In this document: positions 1,413 to 61,656 of the stretch, in pieces
Numbering within the stretch: the first letter of the stretch is position 1
Layout of the letters: every line of letters starts with the position of its first letter
IMG/VR virus record: IMGVR_UViG_3300035698_015907
DNA: 64,000 nt
Source: a virus
Reading direction: 5' to 3' (one strand)
The notes under the pieces: generated by a model
The model's input: only the letters and a program-made list of their open reading frames with translations
The model's database searches: none
What the model was told of the DNA's origin: nothing
Translations under genes and position numbers: made by a program

Positions 1413-2034
1413 ATGAGATTTCGTACTTACAAATGGAATAACCATAGGCTATAGAATTAATAGAGCGATCGGGTGGGGACTACCGTGGAAACAGCTCCCA
1501 ATCCCGGATGAAGACTCTCTGTGGCATAAGTTCTCTCTCATGACTGATGAGACTATGACTGTTTTTGCAGATGAACGCGCTGGGTCATTTAGTAATAATA
1601 TGCCTATTTTAGAACCTCGGTTACTTGCTGATCAATATATCTACGACAATAATGAAAAATACAATATTATTTTCGGAACCGATCTTTTTAAGACTGTAGG
1701 TTTTCTTTCCTAATGGGTATTATGCTAAAAAATGGTATCATCACGATGATGATGTTGATTACGCATTTGAGCTGCATAGAGATGAAGATGATACTGACAT
1801 CTATCCGAGAGATGTAGTCAAATATACGCGTTTCAATCATTATCCTGGAATACTGATTTGATGACGGAAGATGAGGTTCGGGTGCCATGGAATCATTATG
1901 AAATTGTTCGGGATCATCCGGAATGGGTGGCGGTAGTTCCCGCGGAGATACGGTGGTATATGAAGAGGTTTGGTATTATGGATGAACGGGAAGTGTTGAA
2001 GTTGCGCCCGATAATTGCACAATGGTGGGTATGA
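1413..2034 (+). pseudogene. Frameshifted hypothetical phage gene (about 3 shifts)
   Basis: GGAGG RBS at 1401; protein-like frames join as MRFRTYKWNN/GYRINRAIGWGLPW...KTVGFL/PNGYYAKKWY...NHYP/WNTDLMTE...LRPIIAQWWV*. Confidence 0.6.
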
Positions 2035-2463
2035 TGAAAAGATCACAAGTTCGAGCTAATAGGCAAAAGTGGATTGACTTCAAAGGAGCCTGAACGCAAG
2101 AAGGCTAAAAGAGTTTTATCTAAATCCGGCGGAGAAGAACGATGCTGTCTTGGACATGCATGCCAATGCTTTCTAGGCGATCCTGAATTCACAAATAATT
2201 TTTTGGATTCGACACCTGAATATGAGTGGGAAGGTCAGCGCTCGATTCTTCCTAAAAGTCTTGTTAAACAGTTAGGAATGTGGAAAGAAACGGGAGAGTC
2301 TCGAAGACCTATAGTATGCCCTGGCGCCATTGATATATATTCATTAATAGCACTTAATGATAAGACCGAACTAACTCCTCAGGAAATCGGTGAATATTTA
2401 GAATCTGCTATTGAGGGTGGCGTTGATACTCCGTTTAAACCACTATCGGATTATGAAGAATGA
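2034..2463 (+). pseudogene. Hypothetical protein with CCLG motif; N-terminus frameshifted
   Basis: ATG at 2034 (MKRSQVRANRQKWIDF) shifts into the 2074-2463 frame (KEPERKKAK...RCCLGHAC...LIALND...TPQEIG). Confidence 0.55.
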
Positions 2464-2930
2464 TATTACAAAATCTTGATGACATCGAATGGACCGCACA
2501 AAGCATATTCGATCATGTATGTAAGCATCTTTTAATAGATCAAAAAGAACTATCTTATTCTTATAATAGAGAATGCGCATATAGAACTACAAATCGTGAT
2601 GGCAAAACTCTTGCTTGCGGCATTGGCTGCCTGATTCCTGATGAATATTATTCTAAAGGAATAGAAAGCAATAATATAGAATATATCATGTCAACAAATT
2701 TTGAACTTGAAGAATCAGATAAATTTAATGAATTTATTGCGTTCATTAGAGAAAAGCTTGATTTAAAATCTTCAAATTTATCAGTAGATTTTATAAATTC
2801 ATTGCAATATGCGCACGATAAAGTTGTGCAATTTGATGATCGTGAAAAAGTTTCTGTTGATTGCCTTAAGCTGTTGCGCCAACACTTAAGTAATGTAGCA
2901 GAAGAATATTATCTAGAAATGAATGTATAA
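2460..2930 (+). CDS. Hypothetical phage protein (CAYR...CGIGCLI, LQYAHD motif)
   Basis: 156-aa ORF coupled to the upstream stop; motif typical of small phage proteins. Confidence 0.75.
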   Translation: MILQNLDDIEWTAQSIFDHVCKHLLIDQKELSYSYNRECAYRTTNRDGKTLACGIGCLIPDEYYSKGIESNNIEYIMSTNFELEESDKFNEFIAFIREKLDLKSSNLSVDFINSLQYAHDKVVQFDDREKVSVDCLKLLRQHLSNVAEEYYLEMNV

Positions 2931-3203
2931 ATGTCAAATTTAGAACCTACGCATCAGCATGTAAAGTCAGGGTCTCAGTATTTTCTGATTGGCTATGGTA
3001 AGATGCAGACAACTCGTTGGCTGACTGAAACCTCCTATTCGGACAGAGGCACACCCGTAGAATGTGACACTAGGAGCGCTAACAAGCGCGCAGTCGCCAT
3101 TTGCCGCTCCGTCGATGACGGTTCGCTGTGGGTGTGCCCCAAGGAAGAATTCGAGGGCACCTTTGATAGTCTGTTCGTCGCTCTCTCAGAGATCAGCAAG
3201 TGA
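2931..3203 (+). CDS. DUF1653-like small protein
   Basis: THQHVKSGSQY...RSVDDGSLWVCPKEEF resembles the H-x-K-G-x-x-Y...WVRP-x-x-F pattern. Confidence 0.55.
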   Translation: MSNLEPTHQHVKSGSQYFLIGYGKMQTTRWLTETSYSDRGTPVECDTRSANKRAVAICRSVDDGSLWVCPKEEFEGTFDSLFVALSEISK

Positions 3204-3523
3204 GCGAAGCAGAGAATCTGCTCGAGGCGCTCCCGCAGCGCCTTAAGAACGCATCGATCAACGATCGCAAGTATGAGCGCCCTATGAACTGGGATGAAGC
3301 AGATGAACTGTTCGGTCACATAGCAGAGCTTGAAGCTTATATACAAAAGCTAGAATCAGCGCTAGAACCATTTGTAAAAGTCGCTAGAAATGACATCGGC
3401 CTCGATGAGACGGACGGGGATACTTACCGCCCAATGCGCGCTTACAATCTTGTGCCGAACATCAAGATTGGCGATCTACGTTGTGCCGCAGCTGCGGTAA
3501 CTAAAAATAAGAAAGCAAATTAA
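3200..3523 (+). CDS. Hypothetical coiled-coil protein
   Basis: 107-aa ORF, GTGA overlap with the upstream stop. Confidence 0.65.
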   Translation: MSEAENLLEALPQRLKNASINDRKYERPMNWDEADELFGHIAELEAYIQKLESALEPFVKVARNDIGLDETDGDTYRPMRAYNLVPNIKIGDLRCAAAAVTKNKKAN

Positions 3524-3598
3524 TAAAAATATAGGTGTACATTAGAATTAGTTTGTGATTAGCAAATGTTAGCCTCAAACTAAAACGTTAACGTAAGG

Positions 3599-3820
3599 AT
3601 GAAAATCATGAAGAATATTGCTATTGCGGCTATTGTCGCTTCTACCCTTCTCGCTTCTGCACCGGCTTTTGCTGCTGGCGGACATGTTCCGGCAGCTTGT
3701 AAGGACGGTACTGCTCCTGAAGGTTGGCTTCGCGCTGGAGGCTATTGTGAGCTCGTAGAGCGCGGCCCGGAGACTACTTCTAAGAAGGGCTCTCCTCCTC
3801 CCGTTGTTGTTACTCCTTAA
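3599..3820 (+). CDS. Small secreted protein with signal peptide
   Basis: MKNIAIAAIVASTLLASAPAFA signal peptide with AFA cleavage site; 2 Cys in the mature part. Confidence 0.7.
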   Translation: MKIMKNIAIAAIVASTLLASAPAFAAGGHVPAACKDGTAPEGWLRAGGYCELVERGPETTSKKGSPPPVVVTP

Positions 3821-43578: not shown

Positions 43579-43938
43579 TTACTCAGCAGTCTGCTTGAGT
43601 TTACCTTCAAGAACGATAAAACCGTTTGTTCCACCGTTAAGAGTAAGTACAAGTGTGCCAGTTGAGTCTACATCAATTGCTGCAGCATCAAAATCTTGTT
43701 CACCAGAACCAGAGAAGACTGCTACCGTATTAGCGCCTCTTTTGACTGTCCAAAAAGCTGCATTCCCGCAACCATACCAAGCTCTAGTAAGTATAAGTGT
43801 TTCAACATTAAAGCCAGCGGAACCAACATCGCTTGTTCCGTTGTTACCTACTATTGTATATGTAGCATTTGCTACATCGTGTGTTATAATAGTAGCTTCA
43901 TCGCTGAATGCATTTTCTCTTTTTCTTTGTAGCGACAT
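43579..43938 (-). CDS. Hypothetical head-module protein
   Basis: 119 aa, beta-rich, immediately upstream of gp21. Confidence 0.7.
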   Translation of the reverse strand: MSLQRKRENAFSDEATIITHDVANATYTIVGNNGTSDVGSAGFNVETLILTRAWYGCGNAAFWTVKRGANTVAVFSGSGEQDFDAAAIDVDSTGTLVLTLNGGTNGFIVLEGKLKQTAE

Positions 43939-45425
43939 TATCTGATCCCCGTAGGTTCAATCTTAGCTCTATTTTTCTTGAGCCTCTTCTTTTTATTTAG
44001 GGATTTTACTTCTGGGTACATATCTTCAGTCAGTCTAGCTTCTTTTTTGCCAGATGAACCAACAGACCAAAAATGTTCTCCGTCGTGATAACCGACTGCT
44101 AGAGAATTATCATTTTTCTTAATACCATAAGCACTATCATGATAATCATTCTTTCTTAGTGCAGCTTTAGCACTTGTGAAAGTTTCATGATGACCACCTT
44201 CTGGATAATGCTTTCCATCGCTAGTGTCCCATAGATGAAAGCCTTTCTTAAGAGGAAGAGGCATTTTAGTATTTTTTTCGTCTATATTCCTCTTTAGCTG
44301 AGCATCTTTTCTAGCTTTAGAAAAGACTTTAATCTTCTTTCTAGCATCATCTCTTGTACTATCATCGCCAGCTCTAAAAGTCTTGCCTTCATCAACATTA
44401 TTTACATCTTCTTTGCGAGTCTTATAAGGAGCAGCTCCAGCTTGTATTTTATCTGAAGCATTCATATAAGCATCAGAAGACTTTTCAGCAGACTTAGCAC
44501 CTCTTTTCTTGAAGATTTTATCGAATCTATCAGTATCATCTGACTTATTCATATAATCTTTCATCTTAGAAACAGAGAGTTCTGTTATATCTTTTTCTTT
44601 TGCGTGAACTTTAACATTTCGGCTGTTTGTTACTTTTTGCATAGCAGTATTGATGCCTTGAGCCCTTTTTGTAGCTTTCCTAGACTTTGCTAGACCTTTA
44701 TCTGTTTCGCCTTTTTCAAAATGTCTGTTTGCATCGGCATCCATGCGTCGTAAACCCGTAGGCTCTATAGCAGTTAGTGCGTAATCTACATATTTACGAA
44801 GTTTAGTTGGTGAAACTTCATCAACTTGCTCTACTTCTTCTCTAGCAACAACTTTATTGTCAGACATTTCTATGCCTTTAGACCTATCTTTCTTAGTCTT
44901 ACCTAGCATCATAACCTGGCGACTACTAGTCTGATCTGTGGCTTTAATTCTATATCTATTAAGAAGCTTCTTAGTTAATTCTGAAATAACTTCTTCATTC
45001 TGAGACTTAGTTTTAATCCAGTGCTTTGCAGTATCGTGAGCATCATTACGATCATCAGTATGATAATCAGCATTCTTTACGTGCTGTCCTTTATCAAAGT
45101 GCTTAACTTTGTATTCATCCCATTCGCCGTCGAAATATACTTTTGCACCTTTGCCAGTCTTTTCATTAACATGGTTTTTCAACAAACGCATTTCAGTAAT
45201 TCTTGACTTCTTCTTTTTCTTTACGGAATTAGGACCAGAAAGAGCAGCACTATTAACTGTGGCAGCTCTTATTCGCTTTTTATATTTAAGACTACTATCC
45301 ATAGGAGCAGTCTCGCCCTTCGTTATGTTACCACCCTTAGCCACATAATCTTGTACAAGATCATCATTAGTCTTAGGGGATTTTGCATTTCTAAATTTTA
45401 AAATTTTCTTTGTTACGTCTGACAT
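43938..45425 (-). CDS. Basic modular protein, candidate internal head protein
   Basis: Repeated E-[LV]-[ST]-x3-[LM]-x2-Y modules and many (I/L/V)-x-E sites; in the gp20-gp21 interval. Confidence 0.7.
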   Translation of the reverse strand: MSDVTKKILKFRNAKSPKTNDDLVQDYVAKGGNITKGETAPMDSSLKYKKRIRAATVNSAALSGPNSVKKKKKSRITEMRLLKNHVNEKTGKGAKVYFDGEWDEYKVKHFDKGQHVKNADYHTDDRNDAHDTAKHWIKTKSQNEEVISELTKKLLNRYRIKATDQTSSRQVMMLGKTKKDRSKGIEMSDNKVVAREEVEQVDEVSPTKLRKYVDYALTAIEPTGLRRMDADANRHFEKGETDKGLAKSRKATKRAQGINTAMQKVTNSRNVKVHAKEKDITELSVSKMKDYMNKSDDTDRFDKIFKKRGAKSAEKSSDAYMNASDKIQAGAAPYKTRKEDVNNVDEGKTFRAGDDSTRDDARKKIKVFSKARKDAQLKRNIDEKNTKMPLPLKKGFHLWDTSDGKHYPEGGHHETFTSAKAALRKNDYHDSAYGIKKNDNSLAVGYHDGEHFWSVGSSGKKEARLTEDMYPEVKSLNKKKRLKKNRAKIEPTGIR

Positions 45426-45429
45426 TTAA

Positions 45430-45645
45430 TTATCCCCTGAACCTATTTGGGTTCTTTTTTGCTGCCATTACCAAGGCTCGTGATTGCATAAGAGAAATTT
45501 CAGTAGTAATAGTTTTCTCTTTTTTAATATCTTCTATAAAGATTAATAATTCTTCATAGGTCATATCTTTTATACTATCGAGTTTATTTTCCACTTTGTG
45601 CAGCTGTTGCTCGAGCAATTGCTGCTGGTGATTTAGCATATGCAC
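45430..45645 (-). CDS. Small hypothetical protein (true start may be downstream)
   Basis: ORF ending 5 nt before the next start; contains an ITTE|IS module. Confidence 0.5.
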   Translation of the reverse strand: MHMLNHQQQLLEQQLHKVENKLDSIKDMTYEELLIFIEDIKKEKTITTEISLMQSRALVMAAKKNPNRFRG

Positions 45646-46795
45646 TTATAGCACTCTGAAGAGCAGGTGTTTTCTTTGTTCCGGCAGTATTCATATTACC
45701 AACAACATCAACTTTCTTAATTGCTGCACCTCTTCTAGCCCTATCAGCTAATGTCTGTGCTGCTGAAGCTGCACCATCATCACCTCTAATAGAACTGCTA
45801 ACTCTTTTATTTATATCTATTTTAGCTAGGGCCGCTCCACGCGATCCTGCAGGCTTTCCTCTGTTTGCTGGTCCTGAAGCACCAGAAGCTGGCTTCTGTG
45901 AACTAGCTGGTCTACCTCTGTTTGCTGGTCCTGAAGCACCTTGAACGGGCTTCTGCGGTCCAGCTGAATTTGGTGTAGGTCTACCTCTGTTTGCTGGTCC
46001 TGAAGCACCTTGAACGGGCTTCTGCGGTCCAGCTGAATTTGGTGTAGGTCTACCTCTGTTTGCTGGTCCTGAAGCACCAGAAGCTGGCTTCTGTGAACTA
46101 GCTGGTCTACCTCTTCCTGACGGTCCAGAAGCACCTTGAACTGGACTTCTTTCTGCTGGTTTCGGCGCAGGCTTCAGATTCGACTTCCACTGAGCTTCAG
46201 TTTCACCCTTCTGCCTAGTATTAAAAGATTTACCATTAAAATCGAAAACATCTTTACCAGCACTTCTAGCTTTCGAGAATGCGTCACCAAATGCTGATTC
46301 ATTTAGAAATGACTTCATGTGATTTAATACTTTTTCTTTAGACATTTCTATTATTGGATCTCCATTTAAAATTGCTGATTCAACTATTTTTCCATCGTGC
46401 TTGATAGAATGAATTTTATAACCAGTTTTTCTCATTCTATCATTAACTTTTTCTATTGATGAATTTGATGTTTCAGATTTTACTAGCATAGTAAGTTTTT
46501 TCTTAGTACTTGGTGTACCATTAAAACCTTTGTCGTTCTTAGATACTACTGCACGAATCCTATGATGAATATCTTCTTTAATAACATGCCAATCAGAATG
46601 CTGCTCAATATTAGATCTAGAACCTACTTTCTTTTCGTGCTTTAATTCTATTCCTTTTGTGGTAATAACTTTCTCGTCATCAACACTTTTAATAGTACCA
46701 TTTCTTGAAAGAACTACAGCACGTCCTCTATGACGACGCGAGGTTTCTACACCATATCTAATCTTAGAACCAGGTTTTACATCTTCAGAAAACAT
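45584..46795 (-). CDS. Basic modular protein with Gly/Pro/Ser/Arg repeats, candidate internal head protein
   Basis: IKE/IVE/IIE/LNE sites; FGDAFSKARSAGKDVFDFNGKSFNT motif; GASGPANRGRP repeats. Confidence 0.7.
   Translation of the reverse strand: MFSEDVKPGSKIRYGVETSRRHRGRAVVLSRNGTIKSVDDEKVITTKGIELKHEKKVGSRSNIEQHSDWHVIKEDIHHRIRAVVSKNDKGFNGTPSTKKKLTMLVKSETSNSSIEKVNDRMRKTGYKIHSIKHDGKIVESAILNGDPIIEMSKEKVLNHMKSFLNESAFGDAFSKARSAGKDVFDFNGKSFNTRQKGETEAQWKSNLKPAPKPAERSPVQGASGPSGRGRPASSQKPASGASGPANRGRPTPNSAGPQKPVQGASGPANRGRPTPNSAGPQKPVQGASGPANRGRPASSQKPASGASGPANRGKPAGSRGAALAKIDINKRVSSSIRGDDGAASAAQTLADRARRGAAIKKVDVVGNMNTAGTKKTPALQSAISAYAKSPAAIARATAAQSGK
45850..46145 (-). repeat. In-frame tandem repeats of 57- and 69-bp units
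   Basis: Five GASGP(A/S)(N/G)RG(R/K)P units with near-identical DNA. Confidence 0.9.
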
Positions 46796-46797
46796 TA

Positions 46798-47070
46798 TTA
46801 TGTTACCTTCTTAGATATTCTTTTCTTAGTATTATGAGAATACTGTTTACCATAATGAACAACAGCTCCATCAGGAACCAATCTCCAATGGTTTTGGCCA
46901 GAGACACTTCTAACTAATTTCAAGTGTCTTCCGGCCGAGAATGTATGAGCGTATCTTCTTCTTTTTGCTTTAACTGTTATTTTTTCGGGCGGAACAGCAT
47001 GACGCATGCCAACAGGCTGTGTATTTTTATCAAAAAATTTAGTTTCTGTTTTTTCAAAGAAAATAAACAA
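46798..47070 (-). CDS. Basic hypothetical protein
   Basis: 90 aa in a gene string. Confidence 0.55.
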   Translation of the reverse strand: MFIFFEKTETKFFDKNTQPVGMRHAVPPEKITVKAKRRRYAHTFSAGRHLKLVRSVSGQNHWRLVPDGAVVHYGKQYSHNTKKRISKKVT

Positions 47071-47081
47071 AATACACTTCC

Positions 47082-48758
47082 TTAATGTATGCCCGGATGT
47101 CTTAACTTCTTAGACTTAGCAAGCAAACTATGATACTTAGGATCATTATGAGGCTCTTCTGATTTTCCACCAGAACTTACCCACTTATTAGCAGCATCAT
47201 GGAAAGTTTTTACTGCCTTAGAACGAAGATCTTTGCTTTTCTTAGCTTGTGCTTTTACTTGTGCAGGATTTCTCTTTTCATGCGCAGTGAAGTGTACACC
47301 ATGATCAACCCACTGGGAATGATGATTGATGTGATTCTCCGCATGTTCTTTAGTCTGAAATTCCTTAGCTTTAGATTCATCTGGTGTATGAAGTATATTT
47401 CCAGCACCACCATGCTTCTTAGCTGCTACAAACTGGTGAGAAAATGTTCCTTCTCTATTGTAGTTGTGCTTAATTACATTATACTTTCCAGCTTCTGCGT
47501 GAGTTTTGGAAGATTTATTGTCAATCCTATTAAGCTTTCCATAATCAAAATCTGACTGGTGCAATAGACCAGAATGAATGTGATGGATTTCACCACTTGG
47601 GTGATGAATAATAGCAGATTCTCCATCAGGAGATTTTGAAATCTTTGAACCCTGAGGAGCAACATGCTGAGTAGCCCAGTGCTGATCTAGATGATCATGA
47701 GTTATTGGAGATGGCTTAGAAGTTGTAACAGCACGGGCTTCTTCAACATTCTTTACATCACCATTCCAATCGGCATACTTCTTTTCATCTTCACCTGGAA
47801 CTACTGGCTTCTCATTTCTCTTAATGTTAGCAGCTCGGAAGACTTCATCTCCATTGCCATTTCTGTCAGCAATCTGTTCGCCAGCATCTTTGTGCTTCTT
47901 TACAAAACTCTGTTCATCTTCAGTATTTCCATCATACTCTGACCACTTTCTAGCAGGACGAACTATAATGTCTTTAAGTTTCTTTGGCGCAAATTTGTCT
48001 GCCATGATTTCATCAATCTCCTGAGACTCAGACCAAGTATGCATACTATGCGTTGGCCTATTTTTTGTTTGTAATATTCCCTTTTCGATATGGGGATGGG
48101 TCTTTTCCATTCTTTTAGACCATTTTCCGCTTGCATCTTTAACATGCACAGCTTCCCCGCCGCCATGCAAATCTTTAACAGCTTTACTTACTATCATGTG
48201 TGCAGATGAAGTTTTCATAGCCCCATGTAATTCTCTTGAATCACCTTTTGGATTAGTATGAGTCACAGAATTATCGTGATTAATAGTCAATACATGTTTT
48301 CCAGTTGTACTATGACTACCAGCAGAACCACTTTTATCCATATGTGGTTCTATTCTTTCACTACTTTTATTCTTAGCAGCTGCAACTACGGGGTGGACAT
48401 AATCAGCTTTTGGCTTAATTTTTACTTCTGGTGCAGAATTATCGAACTTTTGAAACTTTCCGCCAGCTCCTCTTTTTACACCTGAAACAGGAGCTTTCTT
48501 TCCATCCATAGTAGGTTCAACCCTTTTATGAATAGGAACTTTCTTTGAAAATAGACCTTCATTAACATCAGTATCATCTGATTCAACAATACCTTGGTGC
48601 TTAGAAACATTCACGTTCCAAAATCTCCTGCTTAATTCGTACTTAACTTTACGCTTTGCATCTTTAGGATCGTCTGCACGCACCTTAAACTTCATGGTTT
48701 TTGTACCATGAATATCATGTGTTGCAGCTACGTGTATGTTATGTACATCTTCTTTCAT
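47082..48758 (-). CDS. His/Lys-rich modular protein, candidate internal head protein
   Basis: IVE, VNE, IDE, VEE boundaries between basic modules. Confidence 0.7.
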   Translation of the reverse strand: MKEDVHNIHVAATHDIHGTKTMKFKVRADDPKDAKRKVKYELSRRFWNVNVSKHQGIVESDDTDVNEGLFSKKVPIHKRVEPTMDGKKAPVSGVKRGAGGKFQKFDNSAPEVKIKPKADYVHPVVAAAKNKSSERIEPHMDKSGSAGSHSTTGKHVLTINHDNSVTHTNPKGDSRELHGAMKTSSAHMIVSKAVKDLHGGGEAVHVKDASGKWSKRMEKTHPHIEKGILQTKNRPTHSMHTWSESQEIDEIMADKFAPKKLKDIIVRPARKWSEYDGNTEDEQSFVKKHKDAGEQIADRNGNGDEVFRAANIKRNEKPVVPGEDEKKYADWNGDVKNVEEARAVTTSKPSPITHDHLDQHWATQHVAPQGSKISKSPDGESAIIHHPSGEIHHIHSGLLHQSDFDYGKLNRIDNKSSKTHAEAGKYNVIKHNYNREGTFSHQFVAAKKHGGAGNILHTPDESKAKEFQTKEHAENHINHHSQWVDHGVHFTAHEKRNPAQVKAQAKKSKDLRSKAVKTFHDAANKWVSSGGKSEEPHNDPKYHSLLAKSKKLRHPGIH

Positions 48759-54461: not shown

Positions 54462-57173
54462 CTACGTATTCACTTCTGTCCACAAATCTGGTCCAGATTT
54501 TATAACAGAATCATTGTCGCGGCCCGTGCTTATTATACCAAAAGGAACAACTTCTTCCTCTATAGCATCAGAACCCATTTGATATATGGATTTTACAACG
54601 TCAGTATTTGTTAGGTCTCTAAAATATGGTTGAGAAGATACCCAAGCAAATAATACACAGCACATTACTAGATCATCATTTCCTCTCTCAGCCTCATAGT
54701 GGCCTGTTTTTGTGAGAGAGAAACGAGTTAATTCAGAATAGATATTCAAATCTGATATATCAAGCTGATCAACTTCTATCATAGACTTTAGATTTGCACA
54801 TCCAAGTCTTTTAACTGTTTTAGTAGTCTTAACTCCAAGCTGAGATTTAGACACACCAAATCCAGATGAAATTTCGTGATTTTTGGTTCTCGCAGCAGTC
54901 ATAATGATATTTTCGTATTCTATATCATTATGAAGTATATCTACTACTTGATGTCCTAGATCGTTAGTTTCGATTAATAGCTGAGCATTGTTGAAATATG
55001 TAGCAGCTTCCATTATATACTTCGGATATAGTATAGAGCTTACTGTATTATTCCTAAATGTACATACTACTTTATAAGGAACAGATGATGTATCAAATAC
55101 AACAAATGCAGAATAATCTTGTCCTGAACCATGACTAGTATCAATCACTATCATATAAGAATGTGATCGATCTGCCTGTTCAAAGAATTTGAAACCGTCT
55201 GGTGTCCAATGAATAGGTTCTTTTTGGGTGCCTTCCATCATTGTTAACTTAGAACCAGATATAAGAGTCATTGAAGAACCAAGGAATTCAGTTCCGAATT
55301 CCTGAGCAAAACCTCGTTCAGTCATCAATGCAATTTGCTTCTCCTGCCAAGCATTATCTCTTCCAGGAATCATAGACCAGTGAACTTCTATGGGTTTAAA
55401 TCCATTCCACTCTGGTCGACCATTTTCGTTTGTTTGGCCCTTTTTCTTGGCTTTCGTCCAAATATTATAGAACATATTCATGCCATTTGGTGTAGAAGCT
55501 ATGAATACTTTAGTAGTCTTTCCTGAAGAAATAGTTGGAAAAACTGAGTACCAAAATTCTTCCTGGATATTATCAGGAACAATAGCAAATTCGTCAAGAA
55601 ATACGCAATTATGAACATTAATATCATTAGCTACAAAGCTATTAACATCCTCAACTTCTAATAGATCGTACACATCAGCAAGTCCATTTTGAACTTTTAA
55701 AGCTTCAGAATTTTCAGCTTTTATCCAATTATTATTTTCAAATATAAGATGATCTGGAGTACATACTATAGTTCTACCATCTTTATATGTTAAATGTATA
55801 GTTTCTCTTTTAGATGTAACCTTAATTCCTTCGAATTTTTTGAATCCATCAGCAGTTAAGACGCGTAATTGGCCTTCTTTAAGCTTTTGTTCCAAGGAAT
55901 TCGACCTTTCGCTGCTTCGCTCATTTTTTTCTTTGAAGCTTCTGATCTCTTCGAACCAAGATTCTTTTGCGCTGTTTTCTGTATTTTTTCTGGATTCCGA
56001 TTTATTTTGTTTATATGATCTTCTGTTTTTTTCAGCCCCGTTAATCCATTCGATATATTCTTTCGATTCTCTTCGCTTCTTTTGAATCCTAGAAGTTTTC
56101 CTTTTAGAGAATTTGACATTTTCTTTTTCGATTCTTCTGTATGAATCCTTCCAGTCGCTGATTTCGACATTTTCTTTTTTGTTTCTTCGGTGTGAGTTGT
56201 CCCTAATCTCTGTATGCTCATGGCTTTTGATTGTTCTTGGCGTATAATCATTTTTTGAGCTTCCGTCATTTTCAACATTCTGCCTTGACTGCCAGTCATC
56301 ATTCTGTGTAAAGAAAATGACATCTTCTGATGTATTATTCCTTCCGTCATTTTCATTAAGAGTTTGTGCGCTAACAAGTGTTCTTTTACTGTTAACAGTT
56401 GCATATTCTCTTTTTTGTTCGTTCCACCCAAACATTTCGGGAAGATGTGATGATTTTCCAAATAATATAGCTCTGCTTTTGACCGACTTGGTCTCGATTT
56501 CATCAAATTGAAGTACCATGTCGCGTACTTTCCATTTTTGTACCAAGTCATATAGTTCTCCTATATTCATTTCAACTATATTATCATCTTCATCAGCTAC
56601 TGTTATTTTAGATTTGTATCCAATACAATTGATTGAATATCCTCTTACTGCTGCTGGAGAAGTAGCATTAGATAATATTCTAGAACCATTTTCTAATTCT
56701 ATAGAAGACTTGTTCCATGATACAACACCTTGCTGTAACCATGAAGGCAAAAATTCATATGATATTTTTATTCTATCAACAATTTCAATAGCTGTTGTAT
56801 GTTTGTTAGCAAGAATAGCAGTAGTATAACTTTTATTGAATAATATTGACCATAGAAGATACGCAGATGTTGTTGCAGTCTTTCCTGACTGACGACCAAT
56901 CTTACATATAACATATCTTTCTTCTTCGAAAGATCTTATAATATCTTTCTGCCAATCCCACATCTTGAAAGAAATAATGCCTTCATCAAGAGATATAATC
57001 TTTACATAATTTTCAATAAAGTAAATAGGATCTTTAGCACACTTAACGTATTCTTCAACTTGTTCTAATGTGAATTGAATTCTTACGCTAGGCTTTTTGA
57101 CTTTAAAGTTAGGAGGATAGAAACATTCATCACCTAACTCTTCACTTGGTTTTCCTCTATTATCATTCATCAT
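54462..57173 (-). CDS. gp17: Large terminase precursor (903 aa; 563 aa after intein removal)
   Basis: GRQSGKT Walker A, ELENGS, FLDEFA Walker B, STPNG, DYSAF, DDLVM. Confidence 0.96.
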   Translation of the reverse strand: MMNDNRGKPSEELGDECFYPPNFKVKKPSVRIQFTLEQVEEYVKCAKDPIYFIENYVKIISLDEGIISFKMWDWQKDIIRSFEEERYVICKIGRQSGKTATTSAYLLWSILFNKSYTTAILANKHTTAIEIVDRIKISYEFLPSWLQQGVVSWNKSSIELENGSRILSNATSPAAVRGYSINCIGYKSKITVADEDDNIVEMNIGELYDLVQKWKVRDMVLQFDEIETKSVKSRAILFGKSSHLPEMFGWNEQKREYATVNSKRTLVSAQTLNENDGRNNTSEDVIFFTQNDDWQSRQNVENDGSSKNDYTPRTIKSHEHTEIRDNSHRRNKKENVEISDWKDSYRRIEKENVKFSKRKTSRIQKKRRESKEYIEWINGAEKNRRSYKQNKSESRKNTENSAKESWFEEIRSFKEKNERSSERSNSLEQKLKEGQLRVLTADGFKKFEGIKVTSKRETIHLTYKDGRTIVCTPDHLIFENNNWIKAENSEALKVQNGLADVYDLLEVEDVNSFVANDINVHNCVFLDEFAIVPDNIQEEFWYSVFPTISSGKTTKVFIASTPNGMNMFYNIWTKAKKKGQTNENGRPEWNGFKPIEVHWSMIPGRDNAWQEKQIALMTERGFAQEFGTEFLGSSMTLISGSKLTMMEGTQKEPIHWTPDGFKFFEQADRSHSYMIVIDTSHGSGQDYSAFVVFDTSSVPYKVVCTFRNNTVSSILYPKYIMEAATYFNNAQLLIETNDLGHQVVDILHNDIEYENIIMTAARTKNHEISSGFGVSKSQLGVKTTKTVKRLGCANLKSMIEVDQLDISDLNIYSELTRFSLTKTGHYEAERGNDDLVMCCVLFAWVSSQPYFRDLTNTDVVKSIYQMGSDAIEEEVVPFGIISTGRDNDSVIKSGPDLWTEVNT
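55608..56627 (-). mobile_element. Intein (aa 183-522 of gp17) inserted just before Walker B
   Basis: N-terminal Cys (SIN|CIGYKSKI), block B CTPDH, block F DVYDL, block G VHN|C; the spliced junction SINCVFLDEFA restores the terminase motif. Confidence 0.93.
55856..56551 (-). CDS. HNH homing endonuclease with NUMOD3 repeats, nested in the +1 frame inside the intein
   Basis: ENHHIFPKCLGGTNKKENMQLLTVKEHLLAH (MobE-type HNH); HTEETKKKMS, HTEESKKKMS, RSEENRKNIS, RSEASKKKMS, IPWNK; own AGGAG 6 nt before the ATG. Confidence 0.92.
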   Translation of the reverse strand: MTWYKNGKYATWYFNLMKSRPSRSKAELYYLENHHIFPKCLGGTNKKENMQLLTVKEHLLAHKLLMKMTEGIIHQKMSFSLHRMMTGSQGRMLKMTEAQKMIIRQEQSKAMSIQRLGTTHTEETKKKMSKSATGRIHTEESKKKMSNSLKGKLLGFKRSEENRKNISNGLTGLKKTEDHINKINRNPEKIQKTAQKNLGSKRSEASKKKMSEAAKGRIPWNKSLKKANYAS

Positions 57174-57624
57174 TCTTTATTTCTCTTGTTTTAGTCTGGA
57201 CTCCGTTGTCTTCTAACATTTTTTGGAGACCCTCAGTAGTTAATATCAAATTATTATTAACTGTTGTTGGACCAGTTTCTTCACCAGAAAGCTTTTCTAT
57301 TTCTACCTTTTTCTTAGATAGTTCTAATAAATCTTTGCTGCCATTAAGTATTGTAGATGTAAGAGTAGCAAGAACTTCATATATTCTAGGAGTCTGAGAT
57401 GCACGAGCTAATCCAGTAAGCTCATCAAGTGCATCTGATGCTTTCATTAGTGTATCTATCGTGGTCTGTCTAGAAAGTTCATAATCAGAATCTATTTCAG
57501 TTCTTCTGTTTCCTTCATAAACCGCAATCTGATTAGATTGCTCTTCTTTACCAAGATCACTTTCTATTCCTAGAGACTCTGATAAAGGGTCCCATATCTT
57601 CTTATTTTTTTCATTTTCACTCAT
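57163..57624 (-). CDS. gp16: Small terminase subunit
   Basis: DYELSR, A..S..PR.YEV, TVNNNL....LQKML; directly upstream of gp17. Confidence 0.9.
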   Translation of the reverse strand: MSENEKNKKIWDPLSESLGIESDLGKEEQSNQIAVYEGNRRTEIDSDYELSRQTTIDTLMKASDALDELTGLARASQTPRIYEVLATLTSTILNGSKDLLELSKKKVEIEKLSGEETGPTTVNNNLILTTEGLQKMLEDNGVQTKTREIKNDE

Positions 57625-59988: not shown

Positions 59989-61656
59989 TCAGTCTTGAGA
60001 AATGATCAAATCTGTAGATTGAATTTTCCTATATCCACGAAGTTTTAAACGACTAGGATAACTATATGAATTACTATTTAGTACATTAGAAGAATATCCT
60101 GATGCAATAACAAGAGTTGGATAATTATGATTTGGAACTTTTAGATTATTCGTTACATAATTGTATCTAATTGTTATATCATTGAATGCAGGGCGCCATG
60201 ATAGATCGCCAACTATTACTGATGTATCATCGGCTTCTGTATAATTAGAAGATCCAGTCCAATAAACACTAGCTATAGAAGTTAATGTATCAGCATCTTC
60301 AGAATATTCAATAGAACCATTTCTAAGAATCGTAGCAAAAGAATATATTGTATCATCAGATTCTGTTATAGCTATAAATGCTTGAACTAATAGCTGGCCA
60401 TCAGAAGATATACTATCATCTTCTTCAGATACTGATGTTATTGCTGATACAATTAGATTAGCGCTAGAATTTAATGTATCATCTTCTTCAGATATATTAA
60501 CATTACCATTTATGATAATTGCTGCGCCAGATATAGCAGTATCATCAGCTTCGGTATATGTTATTGAAGCTTTTATTAATAGTTCAGAAGATGAATTTAG
60601 AGTATCATTAGCTTCAGTATATTCTACAGAAGCATTAGTAGTATTGATAGCAGAAGCTGAAGCAGTATCATCTGCTTCAGTATATTCAACTGTACCATTT
60701 GTAATATTAATAGCTGAAGCTGAAGTGGTATCAGCAGCTTCTGTATAAGTTACTGATCCTTTGATTAATAGTTCTGAATCAGAGCTAAGAGTGTCGCTAG
60801 CTTCTGTATAAGTTACTGTTCCCTGAAGCAACACTATTGCAACAAAAGAAACTGTATCATCAGCTTCAGTATATTCTATGGAAGCATTAGTAATATTGAT
60901 AGCAGAAGCTGAAGCAGTGTCACTAGCTTCTGTATAAGAAGTTGTAGCTTCTATTAATAGATCTGAAACTGATGTAAGAGTATCAGCAGCTTCTGTATAA
61001 GAAGTTGTAGCTTCTATTAATAGATCTGATGATGAGGTAAGAGTATCAGCAGCTTCTGTATAAGAAACTGTAGCATTAATTAAAAGATCTGATGAAGAAG
61101 TAAGAGTATCATTTGCTTCTGTGTATTCAACAACAGCATTAATTAATAGCGCTGCAGTGGATGATATAGTATCATCAGCTTCAGTATATTCTATGGAAGC
61201 ATTAGTAATATTGATAGCAGAAGCTGAAGCTGAAGCAGTGTCACTAGCTTCTGTATAAGAAGTTGTAGCTTCTATTAATAGATCTGAAACTGATGTAAGA
61301 GTATCAGCAGCTTCTGTGTATTCAACAACAGCATTAATTAATAGCGCTGCAGTGGATGATATAGTATCATCAGCTTCAGTATAAGAAGTTGTAGCTTCTA
61401 TTAATAGATCTGATGAAGATGATATAGTATCATCAGCTTCAGTATAAGAAGTTGTAGCTTCTATTAATAGATCTGATGAAGATGATAATGTGTCGGCAGC
61501 TTCTGTATAAGAAACTGTAGCTTCTATTAATAGATCTGATGAAGATGATAATGTGTCGGCAGCTTCTGTATAAGAAACTGTAGCTTCTATAGGGGGAAGA
61601 GCACTTTCCTCTACAGAACCATATGGTATAGAACCGTATGGAAAGCCACCGAACAT
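59989..61656 (-). CDS. Acidic tandem-repeat virion protein (candidate collar/whisker fibre)
   Basis: About 22 copies of a ~21-aa YTEAxDT repeat; N-terminal MFG.FPYG.IPYG; occupies the wac position upstream of gp13. Confidence 0.75.
   Translation of the reverse strand: MFGGFPYGSIPYGSVEESALPPIEATVSYTEAADTLSSSSDLLIEATVSYTEAADTLSSSSDLLIEATTSYTEADDTISSSSDLLIEATTSYTEADDTISSTAALLINAVVEYTEAADTLTSVSDLLIEATTSYTEASDTASASASAINITNASIEYTEADDTISSTAALLINAVVEYTEANDTLTSSSDLLINATVSYTEAADTLTSSSDLLIEATTSYTEAADTLTSVSDLLIEATTSYTEASDTASASAINITNASIEYTEADDTVSFVAIVLLQGTVTYTEASDTLSSDSELLIKGSVTYTEAADTTSASAINITNGTVEYTEADDTASASAINTTNASVEYTEANDTLNSSSELLIKASITYTEADDTAISGAAIIINGNVNISEEDDTLNSSANLIVSAITSVSEEDDSISSDGQLLVQAFIAITESDDTIYSFATILRNGSIEYSEDADTLTSIASVYWTGSSNYTEADDTSVIVGDLSWRPAFNDITIRYNYVTNNLKVPNHNYPTLVIASGYSSNVLNSNSYSYPSRLKLRGYRKIQSTDLIISQD
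60220..61590 (-). repeat. 63-bp-period coding tandem repeats with longer internal duplications
   Basis: Repeated gcttctgtataagaa...gtagcttctattaatagatctga units. Confidence 0.9.

What the first reader, a model, noticed from the sequence alone, without database searches (positions are those of the whole stretch)
55608..56627. Intein whose homing endonuclease is a separate gene overprinted in another reading frame
Seen: gp17 has a 340-aa intein (C183...HN522|C). Its middle ~232 codons translate as motif-free K/R/E/N/S-rich sequence. The same DNA in the +1 frame (55856-56551) encodes a complete 231-aa HNH-NUMOD3 endonuclease. Its expression signals are made of intein codons: I-G-E-L-Y-D (ATA GGA GAA CTA TAT GAC) supplies AGGAG plus ATG, and V-L-T (GTC TTA ACT) supplies TAA. 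The terminase frame has no stop across the overlap, although any T-ending endonuclease codon before Lys/Asn/Glu/Asp would create one. C/G-ending codons appear at such positions (ACC GAA, TCG AAA) in an otherwise AT-rich genome. Established: intein homing endonucleases are normally in-frame domains (mostly LAGLIDADG) released by splicing; free-standing HNH genes such as T4 mobE and intron-encoded ones are separate cistrons. Inference: this is a composite element. A free-standing HNH gene invaded a mini-intein out of frame, the intein excises the off-frame polypeptide from the essential terminase, and the nuclease is translated independently of splicing. I do not know of a description of this architecture, but cannot exclude one.
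Basis: partly seen in the sequence, partly recalled or inferred. Interest (0 to 1): 0.95.

Follow-up and report, generated by a model that had tools for sequence, protein, structure and literature searches.

The report
Terminase intein with out-of-frame HNH gene
A T4-like phage's DNA-packaging gene carries a self-splicing protein insert (an intein) whose middle also encodes, one base out of step, a complete DNA-cutting 'homing' enzyme. The double coding is real and shared by dozens of phages, but this kind of layout has been reported before for other inteins and nucleases.

Summary
Observation confirmed (minus strand). gp17 (54462-57173) holds a 340-aa class 1 intein; a 231-aa HNH-NUMOD3 ORF (55856-56551) lies in its +1 frame with its own AGGAG and ATG. 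None of 85 stop-prone codon junctions ends in T (shuffles give about 13 stops). Across 14 alleles the count is 0/1224 against 690/2182 elsewhere; free-standing relatives carry 8-38 stops. Selection acts on the nuclease frame (pN/pS 0.43 vs 1.27). AlphaFold gives a Hint fold with a disordered 210-aa loop. About 40 T4-like gp17 clusters carry the element, scattered among empty alleles, with signs of lateral transfer. Deletion-derived mini-inteins exist, and one fractured (split-intein) allele has the same nuclease. The layout is not new: Brucella phage Tb terL (GenBank; PMC4422536), Gosselin 2025 and Phillips 2026 describe out-of-frame intein nucleases, and this scan met it at least eight times on other DNA. 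What differs here: a zinc-free HNH-NUMOD3 nuclease, insertion after helix alpha1 (the split point of atypical TerL inteins) instead of the usual site, a late promoter five bases before the ATG in most relatives but absent here, and a full allelic series. Splicing, translation and cleavage are untested.

The parts
54462..57173 (-). gp17 terminase large subunit precursor, 903 aa (563 aa after splicing); Walker A at 56877-56897
   Evidence: (Terminase_6N, Terminase_6C)
55608..56627 (-). Class 1 intein, 340 aa, C1...His-Asn, +1 residue Cys at 55605-55607; inserted just before the Walker B strand (SIN|CVFLDE)
56553..56627 (-). N-terminal Hint segment (block A and helix alpha1, intein residues 1-25)
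   Evidence: pLDDT about 90 for residues 1-30; conserved in mini alleles
56558..56562 (-). Shine-Dalgarno-like AGGAG made from intein codons I-G-E, 6 nt before the nuclease ATG
   Evidence: three late genes of this phage also have AGGAG before their starts
55856..56551 (-). HNH-NUMOD3 homing endonuclease gene, 231 aa, +1 frame, wholly inside the intein
56366..56458 (-). HNH motif (E32 H34 H35 ... N49 ... H58 ... H62), invariant in 15 alleles; no CxxC zinc sites
   Evidence: model pLDDT 90+ for residues 31-110
55919..56197 (-). NUMOD3-type helical DNA-binding repeats of the nuclease
   Evidence: Pfam PF07460, 3 stretches; repeats located
55863..56552 (-). Off-frame loop in the terminase frame (about 230 codons), stop-free, predicted disordered
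   Evidence: (pLDDT <50 for intein residues 37-246)
55608..55862 (-). C-terminal Hint segment: VLT strand (overlaps nuclease stop), block B CTPDH 55749-55763, block F 55653-55673, terminal His-Asn
57163..57624 (-). gp16 small terminase, upstream in the same operon

Best explanation
A mobile two-gene cassette in a T4-like gp17 gene. (1) Ribosomes reading the gp17 frame make a 903-aa precursor; the Hint domain folds around a disordered loop and splices itself out by the class 1 route (Cys1, block B His, block F Asp, His-Asn, Cys+1), leaving a 563-aa terminase [anatomy shown; splicing inferred]. (2) Ribosomes starting at the internal AGGAG/ATG in the +1 frame make a separate 231-aa HNH-NUMOD3 nuclease; in this allele it is probably read from the late gp16-gp17 message, in most relatives from its own late promoter [signals shown; translation inferred]. 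(3) In mixed infection the nuclease nicks or cuts intein-free gp17 near the insertion site and repair copies in the whole cassette [mobility supported by phylogeny; cutting and target inferred]. Selection keeps the nuclease sequence and asks of the terminase frame only that it stay free of stops [shown statistically]. Origin: one capture of a free-standing MobD-like HNH gene into the loop after helix alpha1 of the intein; later deletions give mini-inteins and frame breaks give fractured genes [inferred].
For: Stop avoidance 0/85 here and 0/1224 vs 690/2182 in 14 alleles; the fractured allele L253 has 26 stops in that frame and 20 free-standing relatives have 8-38. Mean pN/pS 0.43 in the nuclease frame, 1.27 in the terminase frame, 0.61 in the C-terminal Hint part; amino-acid identity 55% vs 33% on the same bases. 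HNH residues invariant in 15 alleles. Model matches inteins at Z 17.1, rmsd 1.8, 130 residues (PI-PfuI); 31 chains at Z>=8. C1, block B T/H, block F D invariant in 23 inteins; all 46 intein alleles have Cys+1 against 14 of 99 empty alleles. Extein tree needs 16 intein/empty changes; monophyly of carriers rejected, p-AU 4e-44; this gp17 nests with six empty alleles. P0142 and P0147 have inteins 77% identical but exteins 65%, the reverse of vertical pairs. TATAAATA (<=2 mismatches) exactly 5 nt before the ATG in 11 of 15 alleles.
Against: No expression, splicing or cleavage data. The window's allele lacks the roughly 15-codon linker with the late promoter found in relatives and is the deepest, long branch, so its current activity is less certain. 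HNH Pfam hit is below cut-off and fold searches of the nuclease model gave no significant match. pN/pS values are uncorrected, from diverged and non-independent pairs. The empty alleles were sampled by similarity to this gp17, so the tree's count of changes depends on sampling, and it cannot tell gains from losses.
Confidence: 0.85

Rival explanations
1. The cassette is as described but this allele's nuclease is silent or nearly so: loss of the promoter linker left a conserved relic on its way to a mini-intein.
For: No TATAAATA-like site near this ATG; the ANSS..KY linker of relatives is missing. Deletion-derived mini alleles exist in the family.
Against: Full-length ORF, all invariant residues kept, pN well below pS against relatives (about 0.35 vs 0.7), an SD matching those of the phage's late genes; L092 also uses AGGAG at the same spacing; nearest gp17 relatives are empty, which fits a gain in this lineage.
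Confidence: 0.08
2. The HNH is a domesticated packaging cofactor of the terminase, as the Brucella phage paper suggests for its nested HNH (PMC4422536, citing Kala et al. 2014), not a homing enzyme.
For: It lies inside the terminase gene and is co-expressed late; it is under purifying selection.
Against: Close relatives (76-93% extein identity) lack it altogether; in-frame deletions remove it; its domain layout and best families are those of homing endonucleases; lateral transfer as a unit.
Confidence: 0.04
3. The nuclease is made by a +1 ribosomal frameshift as a short IntN-HNH fusion, or the picture is an assembly error in an ordinary in-frame intein, or the insert is removed as an RNA intron.
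For: Related loci exist where IntN reads in frame into a GIY-YIG nuclease (L252, L258, L259, L115). Raw reads could not be examined.
Against: 14 independent assemblies share the same phase with intein length a multiple of 3; a +1 stop lies 4 codons before the ATG, leaving little room for a shift; an ATG is conserved at the start in all 15 alleles; no intron model reaches significance in Rfam; stop purging in the terminase frame requires that frame to be translated through.
Confidence: 0.03

Closest known systems
Brucella phage Tb/Pr (Perisivirus) terL intein with nested out-of-frame HNH (NC_019446 gp07/gp08; Tevdoradze-type annotation noted in PMC4422536, 2015)
   Same: Terminase intein, same-strand HNH gene in the +1 frame, own start with purine-rich upstream, terminase frame open (0/68 T at stop-prone junctions).
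   Different: No detectable homology of the nucleases; Brucella HNH is a zinc-ribbon type with CxxC motifs and sits after block B (canonical site); here a zinc-free HNH-NUMOD3 sits before block B, after alpha1; different terminase family. Independent origin.
Non-canonical actinobacteriophage inteins (Gosselin, Arsenault, Gogarten; bioRxiv 10.1101/2025.01.02.630785)
   Same: Homing nuclease in a frame or strand separate from the intein, often in terminase; same proposed origin by invasion of a free-standing gene; evidence of continued transfer.
   Different: Their out-of-frame types are endonuclease VII-like (frame 3), antisense LAGLIDADG and antisense VSR-like; their HNH inteins are in frame; actinophages, not T4-like phages.
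Cyanobacterial DnaX intein with out-of-frame endonuclease (Phillips, DeSimone, Gogarten; bioRxiv 10.64898/2026.09.14.751524; Gorbalenya 1998 as cited there)
   Same: Disordered in-frame loop, overlapping nuclease ORF with SD, omega low in nuclease frame and high in host frame, full/mini/empty alleles.
   Different: LAGLIDADG nuclease, cellular dnaX gene; no split alleles described.
Fractured genes and atypically split TerL inteins (Dassa et al. 2009, PMC2677866; AceL-TerL, GOS-TerL, Cat, as summarised in PMC13014065)
   Same: Free-standing nuclease inside an intein of T4-like gp17, at the point after helix alpha1 (S2); T4 late promoter before the nuclease; L253 is such a fractured locus with a 48%-identical nuclease; model matches Cat C-fragment at Z 10.8, 30% identity.
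   Different: Here the host frame is not broken: one precursor, cis-splicing. Dassa's model lists fracture and in-frame capture but not an overprinted contiguous state.
Free-standing MobD/MobE-type HNH-NUMOD3 genes of T4-like phages
   Same: 33-41% identity to cultured-phage genes annotated mobD or homing endonuclease; PHROG 655.
   Different: Those are separate cistrons with many stops in the -1 frame; the intein-borne copies form their own clade (99/98).

Membership tests
Class 1 intein (Hint) | Insertion relative to intein-free homologues with exact extein rejoining | tested here: met
   Removing 183-522 aligns without gap to empty alleles P0004, P0006
Class 1 intein (Hint) | Cys1, block B TxxH, block F Asp, terminal His-Asn, Cys/Ser/Thr+1 | tested here: met
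Class 1 intein (Hint) | Hint fold | tested here: met
   Z 17.1, rmsd 1.8, 130 aligned to 1dq3; 31 chains Z>=8; Pfam Intein_splicing below cut-off
Class 1 intein (Hint) | Protein splicing activity | not testable with these tools
   needs expression
Canonical bifunctional intein | Endonuclease domain in frame, between blocks B and F | tested here: not met
   Nuclease is in +1 frame and lies before block B
Non-canonical intein with out-of-frame homing endonuclease | Host frame open through the intein, nuclease ORF in another frame inside it | tested here: met
Non-canonical intein with out-of-frame homing endonuclease | Purifying selection in nuclease frame, relaxed in host frame; disordered in-frame product | tested here: met
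Non-canonical intein with out-of-frame homing endonuclease | Patchy distribution and lateral transfer | tested here: met
HNH-NUMOD3 homing endonuclease (MobD/MobE-like) | HNH motif with conserved catalytic and metal-binding residues | tested here: met
   H34 H35 N49 H58 H62 invariant; weak HNH matches in Pfam and PDB; PHROG 655 E 1e-30
HNH-NUMOD3 homing endonuclease (MobD/MobE-like) | NUMOD3 repeats | tested here: met
   PF07460 E 3.8e-14, above cut-off
HNH-NUMOD3 homing endonuclease (MobD/MobE-like) | Overall fold match to a solved homing HNH enzyme | tested here: inconclusive
   No Foldseek match at E<=0.001; best VIA Z 7.1 on generic helices
HNH-NUMOD3 homing endonuclease (MobD/MobE-like) | Site-specific nicking or cleavage of the empty allele | not testable with these tools
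   needs biochemistry
Fractured gene / atypically split TerL intein | IntN ends in a stop, IntC has its own start | tested here: not met
   One open frame of 903 aa; met in relative L253
Fractured gene / atypically split TerL intein | Break point after helix alpha1 (S2) | tested here: met
   Loop begins after helix H22 of the model and before the VLT strand; S2 defined in PMC13014065
Group I intron with nested HNH | Intron RNA core structure | tested here: not met
   No intron family in Rfam at E<=1

The most novel reading that the evidence does not exclude
The overprinted, contiguous state is the ancestor of at least some atypically split TerL inteins: once an out-of-frame nuclease gene with its own late promoter sits after helix alpha1, small indels plus an internal start turn the cis-splicing intein into a fractured gene. 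The family then shows the whole path (empty, overprinted, fractured, mini) in one host site with one nuclease, a route missing from the 2009 fracture model. Support: L253's nuclease nests among overprinted ones (95/93 and 94/88), but the AU test does not reject the alternative (p 0.13).
Probability: 0.35. Interest if true: 0.65.

Novelty: new variant of a known kind. Interest (0 to 1): 0.45.

Why it matters
It is a clean, widespread case of long same-strand dual coding (about 700 nt) in AT-rich genomes, where about 13-26 stops had to be avoided. Gene callers miss the nuclease in every locus fetched, so such inteins are read as decayed. The family links out-of-frame inteins to atypically split TerL inteins used in protein engineering and makes the order of events in split-intein origin testable. 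It also shows that the S2 loop tolerates a 230-residue disordered insert if splicing is confirmed. The general design is already in the literature, which limits the surprise.

Tried and rejected
Direct search of viral contigs with the intein protein gave only a chance off-frame match to a free-standing nuclease. No cultured phage carries the overprinted form in the tblastn searches: only Hint-part matches in Campylobacter phage CP21 (fractured at the same site with an unrelated ORF) and Desulfovibrio phage 7757 (mini-intein five residues downstream). A hairpin pairing the conserved AAYTCRTCTA motif with the nuclease start is visible in some alleles but not significant overall (Fisher p 0.08); not claimed. 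A stem upstream of the window's SD has z -1.64; not claimed. Sigma70 promoter scan at chance level. Fold searches of the nuclease model uninformative. Gorbalenya 1998 not held, cited only through others. A guessed paper id was wrong; the position of the T4 late start site about 6 nt after TATAAATA is from my own knowledge, and a literature search on leaderless late messages found nothing. Literature search for intein + NUMOD3 + terminase found no paper on this family.
Full report
OBSERVATION. The feature is on the minus strand. The ORF 54462-57173 (903 aa) is a T4-like large terminase, flanked by gp16 and the tail sheath gene. The phage is an uncultured T4-like virus; its major capsid protein is at most 64% identical to cultured phages (Stenotrophomonas DLP_6). 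Residues C183-N522 (55608-56627) are an insertion: removing them rejoins the exteins without a gap against intein-free homologues. It hits NUMOD3 (E 3.8e-14) and PHROG 655 homing endonuclease (E 1e-30); the Pfam HNH hit is weak.

IS IT MORE THAN CHANCE? In this phase a nuclease codon ending in T before AA, AG or GA makes a stop in the terminase frame. There are 85 such junctions and none has T, against 41 of 146 elsewhere; no synonymous shuffle in 100,000 was stop-free, and the expected number of stops is 13 (own codon usage) to 26 (window usage). In 14 distinct alleles with DNA the totals are 0/1224 against 690/2182; a fractured allele with the same nuclease has 26 stops in that frame and 20 free-standing relatives have 8-38. 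So the terminase frame is translated through and kept open by selection.

THE FAMILY. Protein searches found about 40 clusters (90% identity) of T4-like gp17 with a long intein at the same site. I obtained DNA for 13 other alleles; all have intein length divisible by three and the nuclease in +1. For the remaining clusters the arrangement is inferred from the shared off-frame signature. On the same bases the nuclease frame is 55% identical on average with pN/pS 0.43, the terminase frame 33% with pN/pS 1.27, and the C-terminal Hint part has 0.61 (uncorrected, non-independent pairs). HNH residues E32, H34, H35, N49, H58, H62 are invariant. The intein keeps C1, block B Thr/His and block F Asp in all 23 aligned copies, and all 46 carriers have Cys+1 against 14 of 99 empty alleles. 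AlphaFold gives pLDDT about 90 for intein residues 1-30 and 251-340 and below 50 for 37-246; the ordered part matches inteins at Z up to 17.1, rmsd 1.8. The insert lies after helix alpha1 and before block B, not at the usual site between blocks B and F.

MOBILITY. On an extein tree of 73 sequences, carriers and empty alleles need 16 changes, and carrier monophyly is rejected (p-AU 4e-44); this gp17 sits in a starred clade with six empty alleles. Three full/empty pairs are 87-93% identical. P0142 and P0147 share a 77%-identical intein on 65%-identical exteins, the reverse of vertically related pairs: the cassette moved as a unit. The tree cannot separate gains from losses, and empty alleles were sampled around this gp17.

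OTHER STATES OF THE SAME SITE. Mini-inteins of 126-159 aa occur; P0164 keeps the nuclease's last codons (IPWNK in +1) and P0165 is a 200-codon deletion in a 99%-identical extein, so these derive from the full form. L253 is a fractured gene: a 30-aa IntN ending in a stop formed within the conserved linker motif, the same nuclease (48% identity), then IntC with its own ATG. Other loci read IntN through into a GIY-YIG nuclease with the same NUMOD3 tail and restart IntC (L252, L097, L115, L258, L259). In a rooted nuclease tree all 15 terminase-intein copies form one clade (99/98), the window's is the deepest branch and L253 nests inside (95/93, 94/88), but the AU test does not reject overprinted-only monophyly (p 0.13). 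The direction overprinted-to-fractured is therefore suggested, not shown. How the ancestor first became stop-free is unexplained: a one-step insertion of a typical AT-rich gene would bring about 25 stops, so a split intermediate or a more GC-rich donor is likely (inference).

EXPRESSION SIGNALS. This phage uses T4-type late promoters: three of four TATAAATA sites lie just upstream of late genes, each followed by AGGAG. Eleven of 15 alleles have TATAAATA (two mismatches at most, four exact) exactly five bases before the nuclease ATG, spelled by intein codons such as Y-K-Y; other spacings rarely match, and five is a peak in the background too. From my own knowledge of T4 late promoters this would give a message starting at or next to the ATG. 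The window's allele lacks this roughly 15-codon linker and has AGGAG instead, as does L092. A hairpin over the start, as known for I-TevI and mobE (PMC3014915; PMC2677866), was not statistically supported.

MECHANISM. Shown: dual coding, stop purging, frame-specific selection, intact Hint motifs and fold, patchy and lateral spread. Inferred: cis-splicing removes the junk loop from the essential terminase; the nuclease is translated separately; it cuts or nicks empty gp17 alleles and drives homing of the whole cassette. Confidence 0.85. Rivals (silent relic, packaging cofactor, frameshift, assembly error or intron) are weighed in their sections; Rfam shows no intron.

COMPARISON WITH WHAT IS KNOWN. 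The layout is described. Brucella phage Tb has an annotated HNH gene nested in its terminase intein, noted in 2015 as out of frame; I confirmed +1 phase and stop avoidance there (0/68) but found no homology to our nuclease, a zinc-ribbon type and the canonical insertion point. Gosselin et al. report out-of-frame and antisense nucleases in actinophage inteins, including terminases, and propose the same origin. Phillips et al. describe the DnaX case with the same selection pattern and credit Gorbalenya 1998. Dassa et al. describe fractured gp17 split at an unusual point, the S2 site of AceL and GOS TerL inteins. I found no paper on an HNH-NUMOD3 overprinted in T4-like gp17 or on the S2 position in a contiguous intein, within the limits of the library. 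This scan has reported the same general layout at least eight times on other DNA; those notes are not used as support.

VERDICT. Real and well supported; a new variant of a known kind. Interest 0.45.

Noticed in passing
L267 (Campylobacter phage CP21, NC_019507 90845-96138): Cultured phage whose gp17 is fractured at the same site (FS|CC...HN|CNIIVVDE) by a split intein with a 422-aa ORF between the halves; the IntC start is not annotated, and two further inteins are present in gp17.
   Followed up: partly
L252, L097, L115, L258, L259: gp17 loci where IntN reads in frame into a GIY-YIG nuclease sharing the NUMOD3 tail (KINxNPEKI) of this family, and IntC starts at its own ATG: catalytic-domain swap and a further architecture at the same site.
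   Followed up: partly
L266 (Desulfovibrio phage 7757) 1697-3202: Related contiguous mini-intein in gp17 inserted five residues downstream, right after the Walker B DE.
   Followed up: partly
L100, L180, L185 about 1500-3600: UvsX-like recombinase fractured by a canonically split intein with a related HNH gene between the halves.
   Followed up: no
L261, L264: gp17 fractured at a second site (FEC|...HN|C[DE]FLG) with the intein split after alpha1 and a nuclease-like ORF between.
   Followed up: partly
L252 529-3497: gp17 broken twice: a first split intein at Walker A with a 214-aa ORF, then the second split described above.
   Followed up: no
window 59989-61656 (-): 555-aa protein of tandem acidic YTEA[AD]DT repeats with no Pfam hit, next to gp13; possibly a virion fibre or decoration protein.
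   Followed up: no
window 43938-48758 (-): Three large basic proteins without Pfam hits between portal and prohead genes; 45584-46795 has about five GASGPANRG repeats and an internal TATAAATA at 45808-45815.
   Followed up: no
window 56563-56640 (-): A long imperfect RNA stem spans the extein-intein junction and ends just before the nuclease SD (z -1.64, 10 of 200 shuffles as good).
   Followed up: partly
P0134 (intein region): Intein-frame sequence contains an exact tandem duplication of about 22 codons at the nuclease 3' end; natural duplication or assembly error.
   Followed up: no
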